Source of the DNA: Octopus vulgaris
Taxonomy: Eukaryota
Assembly (NCBI GenBank): GCA_951406725.2
Contig: OX597818.1
Coordinates: 100,626,001-100,690,000 of the forward strand
DNA: 64,000 nt
Reading direction: 5' to 3'
Position numbers and translations under genes: made by a program. Each line of letters starts with the position of its first letter. Within the stretch, counting starts at the first letter, position 1. Below are positions 54,629 to 61,389 of the stretch, one piece after another. The notes beneath the pieces are model-generated. The model ran no database searches. It was not told the origin of the DNA and was given only the letters and a program-made list of their open reading frames with translations.

Positions 54629-54975
54629 ATCTATCTATCTATCTATCTATCTATCTATCTATCTATCTATCTATCTATCTATCTATCTATCTATCTATCT
54701 ATCTATCTATCTATCTATCCATCTATCAATCCATCTATTTATCTATCCATCTATATATCTATCTATCTAACCATCTATCTATCCATCTATCTATCTATCT
54801 ATCTATCCATCTATCTATCTATCTACCTATCTATCTATCTGTCTGTCTGTCTGTCTATCTATCTATCTATCTATCTATCTATCTATCTATCTATCTATCT
54901 ATCTATCCATCTATCTATCCATCTATCTATCCATCTATTTATCTATCCATCTATCTATCCATCTATCTAACCATC
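54629..54975. repeat. (TATC)n/(TCCA)n microsatellite hosting the Tx1 insertions
   Basis: Direct reading; the array resumes at 57111-57119, 57608-57819 and 59681-59735. Confidence 0.98.
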
Positions 54976-57110
54976 TGCGCTACATCATAGACAGGGTAGT
55001 TAACGAACCTGGCATGGGTGGGGCCCTGATCAACTTGGATCAATCGAAAGCCTTTGATAGGGTAGACCATCGATACTTGGGGGCAGTCCTGAGAGCGGCT
55101 GGTTTCGGTCCCGTTTTCCGCGGATGGATAGCTGCCTTGTACAGAGGCATCCGTTCGGTAATTCGCGTAAATGGACATCTATCGAGACCTTTCGACATTG
55201 CACGTTCGGTCCGTCAGGGATGCCCCCTCTCGGCGCTTCTATACGTATTGACTCTTGAGCCACTACTGCGGAAGCTGGCGACTCTAAGGGGCATCCCGCG
55301 AGAATTGGGATGCGGGACGAGCGTGTCTGCATACGCGGACGACGTCACCGTCATAGTGTCTAGCCACGAGCACATCGAGCTGGTCGGCGAGACACTGAAA
55401 AACTACGAAGCGGTGACAGGAGCGAAAATCAACCGGGAAAAGTCAGTGGGCTTGCGACTAGGCACCTGGAGAAGCAAGCCCATGCCGTCCACCAGCGCCT
55501 CCGTCGTGGGACGCTGGACCGACGGCCCGGTTGAGTTGCTCGGGGTCTGGTTTGGTCCGGACCTCCAAGTGGAGAAGAACTGGAACGAGATAACGAGTAG
55601 GGTGGTCACTCTCGCCCGGCAATGGGCCGAGAGGAAACTGTCCCTAAAAGGTCGAGCGGAGGTGGCGAACACGTACATCGCGTCCGTCATCTACTACCGC
55701 CTGACCGTCGTACCTTGTCCCGACCCTACCATCACCAAACTACAACGCATCCTCTTTCGCTTCTTGTGGAAAGGATGCGTCCCGATGGTCAGGCGATCCA
55801 TTTGCTGTCAACACCCGTTAAAAGGAGGGCTGGGCATGCCGTGGTTGATGATGCGCAGACACGCGCTGAGACTGCGGCATCTCTGGCTCTATGTAGACGA
55901 CGGTGAACAGGTGTGGTCGCCGTTTGTGAGGCACGCTTTCCCGCAGCTCGTCTCCATGACCGAACTGCAGTCGTGGATCAAAAAGAGGCCGAGGAAGGGC
56001 GAATGGCACCGCGAGTGTCGCGTTGCTCTCAAGCAACTCTGCCGTCCTGGGTCGACCTTAAGTGACTTCAACACAACCAAAGCATTCTATAGGGGTTTAG
56101 TGGAGGGGAGGTACGACGACGAGCTCGGGGCGAACCTGGACGTCGACGAGGAGTACCTGACCCGCCTGTTCAGGACGACTTTCGGGCCAGGGCCCATGGA
56201 CAACTTCCAGAGATCCCTGGCCTGGCAGTGCTACCGAGAAGCGCTACCCGTTCGGGATAAGCTCTACAGACACGGCTCGAGAAACACGGGGCCGACCTGC
56301 CCGAGATGCGGTCAGAGCGACGAAACCGTTCTGCACGCACTCGTTCAGTGTCCAACAATTTCCGACCTGTGGGCTTATGTCGAACAACTGCTGTCACGTG
56401 TGGGACGAGTCGGTTTATCAGCTGAGTCTATCGTCAATATTGTCACGCCTCCTTCCTTCAAACGGGAAGGAAGAGCTATTTTCATCATCCTTGTGGCTAT
56501 GGCGAAAGAATGTATCTGGTGGACGCGTCTGAAAGGATTGGAGACAAACACTTTCCTCTCTGGTCAATCTCTCATCAACTTCTTCAAGTACCACTTGAAA
56601 AGGAAAGTGAGAGTAGAGAGGCAAGTTTTGTCTAGCGAATGTTTTAAAAAAAGATGGGTGAATGTAGCAAGAATGGCACGTATGAATGACGAAGCCACCT
56701 TGAGCATAGTCCTATGAACCCAGAAATCGAAAACAGAGAGTTGCTTATTTGCAACAAAAAAAAAAAAAAAAAAAGAATTATAAAATGTGACTTCATTGAC
56801 CGAGGTTACCGTGGTCTTTTCCGTAGGCTTTTCTTTCCACGGGTAAACCTCACTTGTCCTCCCCTTTACACTTCATATTGACATTTCTGTGATAACGATC
56901 CCTATTGATCAATTTTTTTTTCCTCCCCCCCTTTTTTTTTAACCCCCCTTTTTTTGTGTCCTCCTTCTCTCCTTTTACGATCCCTTTTGATCGAAACTCC
57001 CCCTTTCTTTTTTTTTTTTTTTTTTTTTCTTTTTTTAACCTTCAAAAGAAAAGCTCTACCTTGTAATTTGTTCTATCTGTGTGCAGCCCTGTGTGGCTAA
57101 TAAAGAAACA
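54976..57110 (+). mobile_element. L1/Tx1-clade LINE copy 1, 5'-truncated
   Basis: RT and zinc-finger ORF followed by a pyrimidine-rich 3' UTR ending AATAAAgaaaca directly into tatc. Confidence 0.95.
54978..56717 (+). CDS. Tx1-like ORF2 C-terminal part (reverse transcriptase + CCHC), uninterrupted
   Basis: LDQSKAFDRV, SVRQGCPLS, AYADD, GAKINREKS, KGGLG, CPRCGQSDETVLHALVQC; the frame is open from the truncation point (RYIIDR...). Confidence 0.93.
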   Translation, partial: RYIIDRVVNEPGMGGALINLDQSKAFDRVDHRYLGAVLRAAGFGPVFRGWIAALYRGIRSVIRVNGHLSRPFDIARSVRQGCPLSALLYVLTLEPLLRKLATLRGIPRELGCGTSVSAYADDVTVIVSSHEHIELVGETLKNYEAVTGAKINREKSVGLRLGTWRSKPMPSTSASVVGRWTDGPVELLGVWFGPDLQVEKNWNEITSRVVTLARQWAERKLSLKGRAEVANTYIASVIYYRLTVVPCPDPTITKLQRILFRFLWKGCVPMVRRSICCQHPLKGGLGMPWLMMRRHALRLRHLWLYVDDGEQVWSPFVRHAFPQLVSMTELQSWIKKRPRKGEWHRECRVALKQLCRPGSTLSDFNTTKAFYRGLVEGRYDDELGANLDVDEEYLTRLFRTTFGPGPMDNFQRSLAWQCYREALPVRDKLYRHGSRNTGPTCPRCGQSDETVLHALVQCPTISDLWAYVEQLLSRVGRVGLSAESIVNIVTPPSFKREGRAIFIILVAMAKECIWWTRLKGLETNTFLSGQSLINFFKYHLKRKVRVERQVLSSECFKKRWVNVARMARMNDEATLSIVL

Positions 57111-59680: not shown

Positions 59681-61389
59681 TATCTCTCCATCCATCCATC
59701 TATCTATCTATCTATCTATCTATCTATCAATCTATGTCTCTATGTATCTATGTATATATATATATATATATATATATATATATATATGCATGTAGACACA
59801 ACCATGTATTCAGTTTACAGATAGAATGGTGTTAGAATGTATATATACATAAACATACACATACACACACATATGTTTATTCATGTGTGTGTGTGTGTGT
59901 GTGTGTGTGTGAGTGCGCCCGTGTGTGTGCCAGTGTGTGTGTCTGTTTGTGTGCCCGTGGCTGTGTGTGAATGGGTGTTTATTTAGCAGCGAAACATTTT
60001 TCGTCCGTAATGTAAACCTGAAAGACTGAAAGGTTTACTCAACCGTGAAGTTTCAGTTGCTGTCGTTACACGCAAGAAATTATTCTCCGAGTACAATACT
60101 CAATCATACAACTTATACATATTTAATATATATGCAAATAGACAATTGAATATTCTGTAGAATATTCGTGCACTTGAAATTATATGTTGTACACCATTTT
60201 ATTTATATAATAGATCAATATTATGTTATGCTAATACTTTACACAAGACACCTTCAAATCAACATTTTACCCTTAACAATATACCGACGTCTACAGACGT
60301 TGATATACGTCTTTCTTTTCATATTCAGCAAAAACTAGAGACCTAGCTTCGTAGGATAGCACCTGCCGTTTCCGAGAAAGCGGGGATCCACATTTATCAT
60401 TTCATGAAGCTTTGAGAAGTTGAAAGTTTGACGTTATTTATTTGGTATGCTTAACTTACAGATTAAGTAATTATGCAAACTGTCAAGGAAATTCAAATTT
60501 GCCGTTGCTTCTGCACTGAGTTTTAACTCTTTATTTCTTATATTGCAATACGCCGGGTTGTTCCTTCGAGGAATGGCACAACATGGTCATACACATGATA
60601 TTTCAGTCAGTAGTTAATACTATGTACCTTCCAACAAAACAATGATCACCTGGCGATACTTTGGTTTTCCGTCATCAAATATGTCACATCCTAGTTGTGT
60701 TTCCCGACGAAAGATTAGATATGACACCACAAATTCCTAGTTTTGAAGTGGAGGTCTATAAATTTTTACATAAATTATTAACTAATAAAAATTTCCTTTG
60801 ACGAACAATACCTTGTAATATGTAGATTAAAGTATAATCCAAGTTAACAATCATTATCAGCGCCCTAGTGGGGAACAAAATCGAATATGAACACAAACAA
60901 TATTTCATTCTTGTGTAATTAAATCACTTCAGTTCCAACTTATTCTGTTTATTTCACTCACGTAATTAATGAAAATACAATGAGATAATCAGACAAAACA
61001 ATATATATAAATGACCAGCATCTATCAGAATGGATAAATAAACTCTAGTGGGTGTCATGGATCCAAAATAATACATTTAAATGAAAGAATATAATTAGGA
61101 TAACTATATACGTACATACATACATACATATATACGCATACAGATAAACACATATATGAATATTAAATACATGTATTAACAAAAACTCACACATAAGCAC
61201 CACTACTTCGTCATTTTCTCAATATTCTATACGAGCAATGGACCGTGCTGAGTTGTCAAATATTTAAACGAAATTTTCTCATAACAACTTGTCCGACAGT
61301 ACCATAGACCACCTCTTTGAGAAACACTGATTTAACCTAAATTTGAGACACCAGCAAAAGAAGAAATAAAGATAGACTTTTTTTTCTAT

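What the first reader, a model, noticed from the sequence alone, without database searches (positions are those of the whole stretch)
54629..59735. Young Tx1-type retrotransposon apparently targeted to (TATC)n/GATA microsatellites and stacked head-to-tail
Seen: three same-orientation copies with three different 5' truncation points (54976, 57120, 57820). All end at the same base (AATAAAgaaaca), none has a poly-A tail, and each sits in TATC repeat. The ORFs have no stops. Known: some Tx1-clade APE elements are microsatellite-specific (Kibi for TC, Koshi for TTC). Inference: this is a sequence-specific, recently active family. I do not recall a described TATC-specific family, but could not check.
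Basis: partly seen in the sequence, partly recalled or inferred. Interest (0 to 1): 0.75.

Follow-up and report, generated by a model that had tools for sequence, protein, structure and literature searches.

The report
Octopod LINE targeting GATA microsatellites
Three truncated copies of a young jumping gene sit head to tail in one GATA repeat, and across this genome its copies lie almost always inside such repeats and facing one way, likely because its DNA-cutting enzyme picks that repeat; repeat-seeking jumping genes are known, but I did not find this repeat described as a target.

Summary
Confirmed. Three 5'-truncated copies (54976, 57120, 57820) of one L1-group LINE end at AATAAAGAAACA and run straight into TATC. 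Genome-wide, 3,325 of 3,470 exact 3' ends continue TATCT. 36 of 40 young position-sampled copies and 29 of 30 full-length 5' ends have TATC upstream, none GATA; perfect (TATC)7 precedes about 0.12% of positions per strand. The TATC is target, not tail: target-site duplications (about 9-14 bp; 9 bp around window copy 2) start at the first base after the element, rare off-target copies carry no repeat, and one has an empty allele in three samples. Full-length copies are 6.1-6.4 kb (zinc-knuckle ORF1; APE-RT-zinc-finger ORF2), about 99% identical. Stacking needs no special mechanism: repeated insertion into long arrays plus tandem duplication. It works like Kibi, Koshi and crocodilian (TTCC)n/(TTTC)n Tx1 families; clade kinship was not resolved. 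Eight paper searches found no TATC-target family; Repbase and Dfam were not available. This scan noted such a family twice before on other DNA. New target, known kind.

The parts
54629..54975 (+). (TATC)n microsatellite with CATC/TGTC variants; target array upstream of copy 1
54976..57110 (+). Copy 1: 5'-truncated LINE, starts inside RT; ORF2 remnant 54978-56717 (579 aa, RVT_1 16-190, zf-RVT 413-465); 3' UTR to AATAAAGAAACA
   Evidence: the same position continues upstream into full-length ORF2 in other copies
57111..57119 (+). TATCTATCC: left copy of the 9-bp target-site duplication of copy 2, starting at the first base after copy 1
   Evidence: sequence; (9-10 nt match)
57120..57607 (+). Copy 2: last about 36 codons of ORF2 plus 3' UTR; inserted at the 3' junction of copy 1, so later than copy 1 (inferred)
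57608..57819 (+). TATCTATCC (right TSD copy, 57608-57616) followed by (TATC)n spacer, 212 nt in all
57820..59680 (+). Copy 3: 5'-truncated LINE, ORF2 remnant open to 59295, 3' UTR to AATAAAGAAACA; no TSD recognisable
59681..59735 (+). Downstream TATC/CATC array, then (TA)n

Best explanation
This is a young two-ORF L1-group (likely Tx1-type) retrotransposon family whose copies sit in one orientation inside pre-existing (TATC)n repeats, likely because its APE endonuclease nicks the (GATA)n strand in register. Shown: fixed 3' junction AAACA|TATCT, TATC at both junctions, strand bias, target-site duplications starting at the junction, no retained tail, intact catalytic residues. Inferred: ORF2 nicks the GATA strand and reverse-transcribes from the freed 3' end (TPRT); a few read-through UAUC bases at the RNA end probably pair with the primer and fix the register; second-strand cleavage about 9-14 nt downstream makes the TSD; early stops give the 5' truncations. 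Each insertion leaves repeat on both sides, so long arrays are hit again and stacks form; unequal exchange then duplicates some units.
For: 3,325 of 3,470 exact 40-mer 3' ends continue TATCT; 5,105 of 6,677 shorter 20-mer ends, which include older sister families, continue ATATCTAT. Position-sampled set (84 of the first 85 matches on contig C1): 36 of 40 copies at 95% or more identity have 3 or more TATC units within 50 nt upstream, 26 of 40 a perfect 28-mer, 0 of 84 GATA; background about 0.12% per strand. 29 of 30 full-length 5' ends. TSDs that include array interruptions: window copy 2 (9-10 nt), L126 (12-13), L049 (14-16), L160 (12-14), L073 (13-14), L071 (10-13). Off-target copies: 5 of 24 with the 5' end in view show 10-17-nt matches that begin right after AAACA, with no TATC. 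Full-length off-target copy L032: empty allele with one copy of the site in contigs of 4 runs = 3 samples; TSD 5-8 bp. APE catalytic residues align with human L1 ORF2. The target is kept by a sister family about 78% identical in ORF2 protein.
Against: No cleavage assay; no RNA 3' end seen. Only 11 of 25 older copies (under 85% identity) show TATC at the 5' side and 12 of 18 at 85-95%, so specificity was weaker or the repeats decayed. 19 of 24 off-target copies with the 5' end in view show no clear TSD (most are old and their 5' ends poorly placed). In pure arrays TSD length cannot be read. The empty allele rests on one locus and on short contigs (21-63 letters on the upstream side) in an old repeat that has paralogues. 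Junction data cannot separate enzyme preference from RNA-DNA pairing.
Confidence: 0.7

Rival explanations
1. RNA-chosen target: the endonuclease is loose (nicks near ATA), and the read-through (UAUC)n at the RNA 3' end selects sites by pairing with the nicked GATA strand; donors sitting in TATC thus perpetuate their own target.
For: AATAAA lies 6 nt before the element end, so normal 3' processing would leave some downstream repeat on the RNA (inference). 78 of 84 sampled 3' junctions start TAT, off-target ones too. At L032 the site also shares ACA with the element end, and 4 of 5 off-target TSDs are preceded by A. Read-through target sequence improves R2Ol accuracy and efficiency (PMC6795142, passages). 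An older relative with a similar 3' end runs into ATT/ATC repeats instead.
Against: Target choice in this group is mainly ascribed to the endonuclease (PMC4494074 and PMC3812793, passages). A full-length off-target donor such as L032 would then be expected to seed off-target progeny, yet only 37 TAT(G/T)(A/C/G) ends exist. No RNA data.
Confidence: 0.22
2. TATC is a self-encoded tail (as in RTE or CR1-type LINEs) and the stacks are template-jump concatemers; the element makes the repeats.
For: Fixed in-phase 3' junction; two copies (L162, L164) have long 3' TATC and non-TATC 5' flanks; RTE elements in octopus have microsatellite 3' UTRs (PMC9115989, passages).
Against: 5'-truncated copies have TATC upstream; interrupted TSDs begin within 1-2 units of the junction; spacers between stacked copies are as short as 6, 8, 9 and 11 nt and range to 678 (58 pairs); off-target copies have no tail and an empty allele exists. 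L162 and L164 abut other repeats, which fits later disruption.
Confidence: 0.04
3. Passive survival in harmless repeats, tandem duplication or assembly artefact.
For: Duplication does occur: five copies with one 5' start and at most 1 difference in 900 nt in a stack at G000:C1:60.42-60.46 Mb. Passive accumulation is proposed for Waldo-A/B in Drosophila (PMC3812793, passage).
Against: About 500-fold enrichment, strict strand bias, fixed register, youngest copies most specific; the three window copies have different truncations and substitutions; the element is held by 20 runs of 11 studies.
Confidence: 0.04

Closest known systems
Kibi (TC)n and Koshi (TTC)n of teleosts; crocodilian Tx1 families on (TTCC)n/(TTTC)n (PMC4494074 passages and section 15; PMC3812793 passages)
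   Same: APE-type L1-group LINE inserted sequence-specifically into a microsatellite; tandem insertions flanking a TSD are described for the related SINEU-3.
   Different: Target is (TATC)n, not a pure pyrimidine repeat; host is an octopod (inferred); kinship to the Kibi/Koshi lineage not tested, no reference sequences on hand.
Keno-type U2-snRNA-targeting elements (PMC4494074 passage; three metagenome examples L217, L221, L223 found here)
   Same: Similar ORF2 length and domains, 34-39% identity in the RT region; their 3' junction also begins TATCT (AAAAG|TATCTGTTCTT).
   Different: Target is an snRNA gene; A-rich end; neither tree joined them to this family, so the shared TATCT may be chance.
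Waldo (ACAY)n, Mino (AC)n, Dong (TAA)n, Togen (TG)n (PMC3812793, PMC4640811 passages)
   Same: Microsatellite-specific non-LTR retrotransposons, Waldo on a tetranucleotide.
   Different: Other clades and other repeats (clade names recalled: R1 for Waldo/Mino, R4 for Dong); none listed on TATC/GATA.
Octopus vulgaris L1-Tx1 families (PMC13282606, parts 1-2 of 3 read, one supplementary file searched)
   Same: 13 recently active L1-Tx1 families with 421 insertions are listed for an octopus; this family or a relative is probably among such libraries.
   Different: No target sites are described in the parts read or the supplement searched; the Zenodo library was not available.

Membership tests
L1 group of non-LTR retrotransposons | Two ORFs; ORF2 with APE endonuclease, RT and C-terminal zinc finger, no RNase H | tested here: met
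   ORF2 1,145 aa: Exo_endo_phos 20-208, RVT_1 507-756, zf-RVT 979-1031; best solved relative human L1 ORF2p, E 3e-53 by sequence, top fold hit
L1 group of non-LTR retrotransposons | TPRT marks: 5' truncations, 5' inversions, TSDs | tested here: met
   (inversions at L007, L152)
Tx1 clade | RT phylogeny groups with Tx1L, Keno, Kibi, Koshi | tested here: inconclusive
   No named reference available. With U2-flanked and 5S-flanked metagenome elements as stand-ins, the family forms its own 100% branch with unnamed relatives in an unresolved polytomy (FastTree 72 rows; quick IQ-TREE 25 rows; careful searches did not finish)
Tx1 clade | ORF1 with CCHC zinc knuckle rather than the mammalian L1 type | tested here: met
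   One C-X2-C-X4-H-X4-C motif read by eye in ORF1; no Pfam hit; RRM/zf-CCHC ORF1 called consistent with Tx1 in PMC5203782 (passage)
Microsatellite-specific Tx1 families (Kibi/Koshi kind) | One repeat type in over 20% of flanks (criterion of PMC4494074) | tested here: met
   90% of young 5' flanks, 96% of 3' ends
Microsatellite-specific Tx1 families (Kibi/Koshi kind) | Endonuclease cleaves the target repeat | not testable with these tools
   needs an in vitro assay
Catalogued Repbase/Dfam family | Match to a named consensus with target annotation | not testable with these tools

The most novel reading that the evidence does not exclude
The target is programmed by the element's own read-through RNA tail: donors copy their flanking repeat into the RNA end, which then selects the same repeat, and octopod sister families switched between (TATC)n and (ATT/ATC)n by changing that tail rather than the endonuclease.
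Probability: 0.15. Interest if true: 0.7.

Novelty: new variant of a known kind. Interest (0 to 1): 0.42.

Why it matters
It extends microsatellite targeting by APE-type LINEs to (GATA)n and to cephalopods, with thousands of young copies and a few dozen off-target sites that map nick and TSD. How such elements recognise microsatellites is described as poorly understood (PMC3812793). An intact, recently active ORF2 with an older relative on a different repeat gives a tractable enzyme-versus-RNA test. Practically, GATA markers in these animals can be interrupted by polymorphic multi-kilobase insertions.

Tried and rejected
No RNA holder is listed as RNA on record, so expression and the RNA 3' end were not examined. 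Laying contigs on the whole L032 element did not list the empty-site joint; the flank alone did. No empty-site test was made in the window, because short contigs break in the arrays. The protein atlas gave no result. A single-sequence fold of the endonuclease was unusable (pLDDT 34.5); the alignment-based ORF2 model (pLDDT 68) only confirmed the L1 fold. Homologue searches gave almost no names; best named relative Argonauta hians, 68% over the RT region. Descent from U2-targeting Keno-type elements: suggested by the shared TATCT, not supported by trees. A special self-targeting or template-jump mechanism: rejected; 5 of 58 spacers are 17 nt or less, the rest spread to 678 nt, and about 0.4% of repeat units carrying a copy (6,677 ends over 1.72 million positions, my arithmetic) makes three copies in about 155 units uncommon but expected somewhere. 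The pattern caught only one 5' variant (41); caught both (237). Kojima and Fujiwara 2004 and Christensen 2000 were not held; supplements and figure labels of PMC4494074 were not seen and may list further targets.

Full report
Observation. The sequence shows three same-strand copies at 54976-57110, 57120-57607 and 57820-59680, each ending AATAAAGAAACA and continuing TATCT without poly(A). TATC arrays lie before, between and after them. The ORF2 remnants of copies 1 and 3 are open, carry RT and zf-RVT and differ at 5 of 1,473 bases. All three are truncated inside or after the RT and lack the endonuclease. Copy 2 is bracketed by TATCTATCC on both sides, a 9-bp duplication that starts at the first base after copy 1, so it most likely inserted later at copy 1's junction.

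The family. The genome (2.8 Gb; octopod inferred from the best named relative, Argonauta hians at 68%) holds 6,677 exact matches to the last 20 bases, 3,470 to the last 40 and 237 to the 5' end. Full-length copies are 6.07-6.39 kb, with an ORF1 of about 680-770 codons bearing one CCHC knuckle and an ORF2 of 1,145 aa (APE, RT, zf-RVT). 14 uninterrupted ORF2 copies were found in 90 loci; of 7 full-length copies scored, 2 have both ORFs unbroken. Pairwise dS among nine equal-length ORF2 copies is 0-0.022 and dN 0.001-0.003. At least three 5' UTR/ORF1 variants share the ORF2 and 3' end. The best solved relative is human L1 ORF2p, and the APE catalytic residues align.

Targeting. 3,325 of 3,470 40-mer ends continue TATCT. 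To test the 5' side without choosing by flank I took the first 85 matches on contig C1 and analysed 84 (one, already fetched in the similarity-picked set, was left out). Of 40 copies at 95% or more identity to a reference copy, 36 have three or more TATC units within 50 nt upstream and 26 a perfect 28-mer; 12 of 18 at 85-95% and 11 of 25 below 85% do; one had no alignment; 0 of 84 have GATA. The four young exceptions are one copy 5-6 nt behind an older copy's end, one off-target insertion and two abutting other repeats. 29 of 30 full-length 5' ends picked by similarity lie in TATC. Perfect (TATC)7 starts at 854,754 and 867,399 places on the two strands, about 0.12% of positions per strand over four phases, an enrichment near 500-fold.

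Target, not tail. Of 134 copies with both ends in view, 19 gave a best flank match that was not pure TATC; the convincing ones are 9-16 nt, include array interruptions and begin at the first base after AAACA. Only 37 ends continue TAT(G/T)(A/C/G); of 30 fetched, 24 had the 5' end in view and 5 show 10-17-nt duplications with no repeat; the other 19 are mostly old. The full-length off-target copy L032 has a 5-8-bp duplication, and contigs from four runs (three samples, one possibly the source of this DNA) join its upstream to its downstream flank with one copy of the site. Spacers between 58 stacked pairs run from 6 to 678 nt.

Stacks. Larger stacks exist: about 17 copies of several ages in 39 kb at G000:C1:60.42-60.46 Mb and 7 at C1:84.37-84.40 Mb, all one way and separated by TATC; five copies in the first share one 5' start and differ at no more than 1 of 900 bases, so duplication adds to insertion. 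Length-weighted targeting roughly accounts for the numbers (my arithmetic).

Mechanism. Shown: junction, orientation, TSDs, absence of tail, intact enzyme. Inferred from TPRT: nick on the GATA strand, priming probably aided by a few read-through UAUC bases (as for R2Ol, PMC6795142 passages), second nick about 9-14 nt on. Whether enzyme or RNA end chooses the site cannot be told from junctions.

Relatives. A sister about 78% identical in ORF2 with another 3' UTR also ends in TATC. An older, decayed relative (copies about 80% alike) runs into ATT/ATC triplets in all 22 of 30 loci where its end is seen, with (TTA)n near the roughly placed 5' end in about 8 of 30: a possible target switch, not proven. 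Among 80 metagenome loci, three end in U2 snRNA at AAAAG|TATCTGTTCTT (Rfam on 20 of the 80), as Keno-type elements do, but two trees left their relation to this family open.

Literature. Eight searches found no TATC/GATA-targeting LINE. Read: PMC4494074 (passages, section 15; supplements not available), PMC3812793, PMC4640811, PMC8869645, PMC6795142, PMC9115989, PMC5203782 (passages), PMC13282606 (parts 1-2 of 3; one supplementary file searched). Known targets are TC, TTC, TTCC, TTTC, ACAY, AC, TAA and TG. Most subscription papers, Repbase and Dfam were not searchable. Earlier notes of this scan describe a GATA-targeting octopod LINE in this genome and in another; they are not independent evidence.

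Verdict. Real, strongly sequence-specific and recently active; a new target for a known kind of element. Interest 0.42.

Noticed in passing
G000:C1:60,416,000-60,460,000 (L321-L325) and C1:84,371,000-84,401,000 (L326-L328): Stacks of about 17 and 7 same-orientation copies of several subfamilies in TATC, partly by tandem duplication; a third cluster of five 3' ends near C1:71.61 Mb was not fetched.
   Followed up: partly
L166:3815-4500 and L181-L210: Older relative ending TGTGGTTAATAAAGAAATC that runs into (ATT)n/(ATC)n; possible sister family on another microsatellite.
   Followed up: partly
L217, L221, L223 (metagenome loci): Keno-type elements inserted in U2 snRNA genes; 3' junction begins TATCT like this family's. 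L226 is flanked by 5S rRNA.
   Followed up: partly
L092-L120, 5' junctions of full-length copies: Extra CT/CTCA units are common just before CTCACAATG, and two (L103, L115) show an aborted-looking CTC(T/A)CAGATC then TATC again: slippage at second-strand priming?
   Followed up: no
L129, L058, L059, L042: 10-55 nt of unrelated sequence between the TATC array and the truncated 5' end.
   Followed up: no
P0258 cluster (Patella caerulea, SNE40_003393-003415): Eleven near-consecutive gene models of a 30%-identical relative on one contig: likely another tandem stack of a site-specific LINE.
   Followed up: no
window 52580-54230, - strand: Decayed 5' part of another LINE (Exo_endo_phos_2 endonuclease, upstream CCCH-like motif), unrelated to the finding.
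   Followed up: no
L123, L147, L176, L131, L039, L060: Copies share ORF2 and 3' end but differ in 5' UTR and the middle of ORF1, suggesting repeated 5' replacement or recombination.
   Followed up: partly
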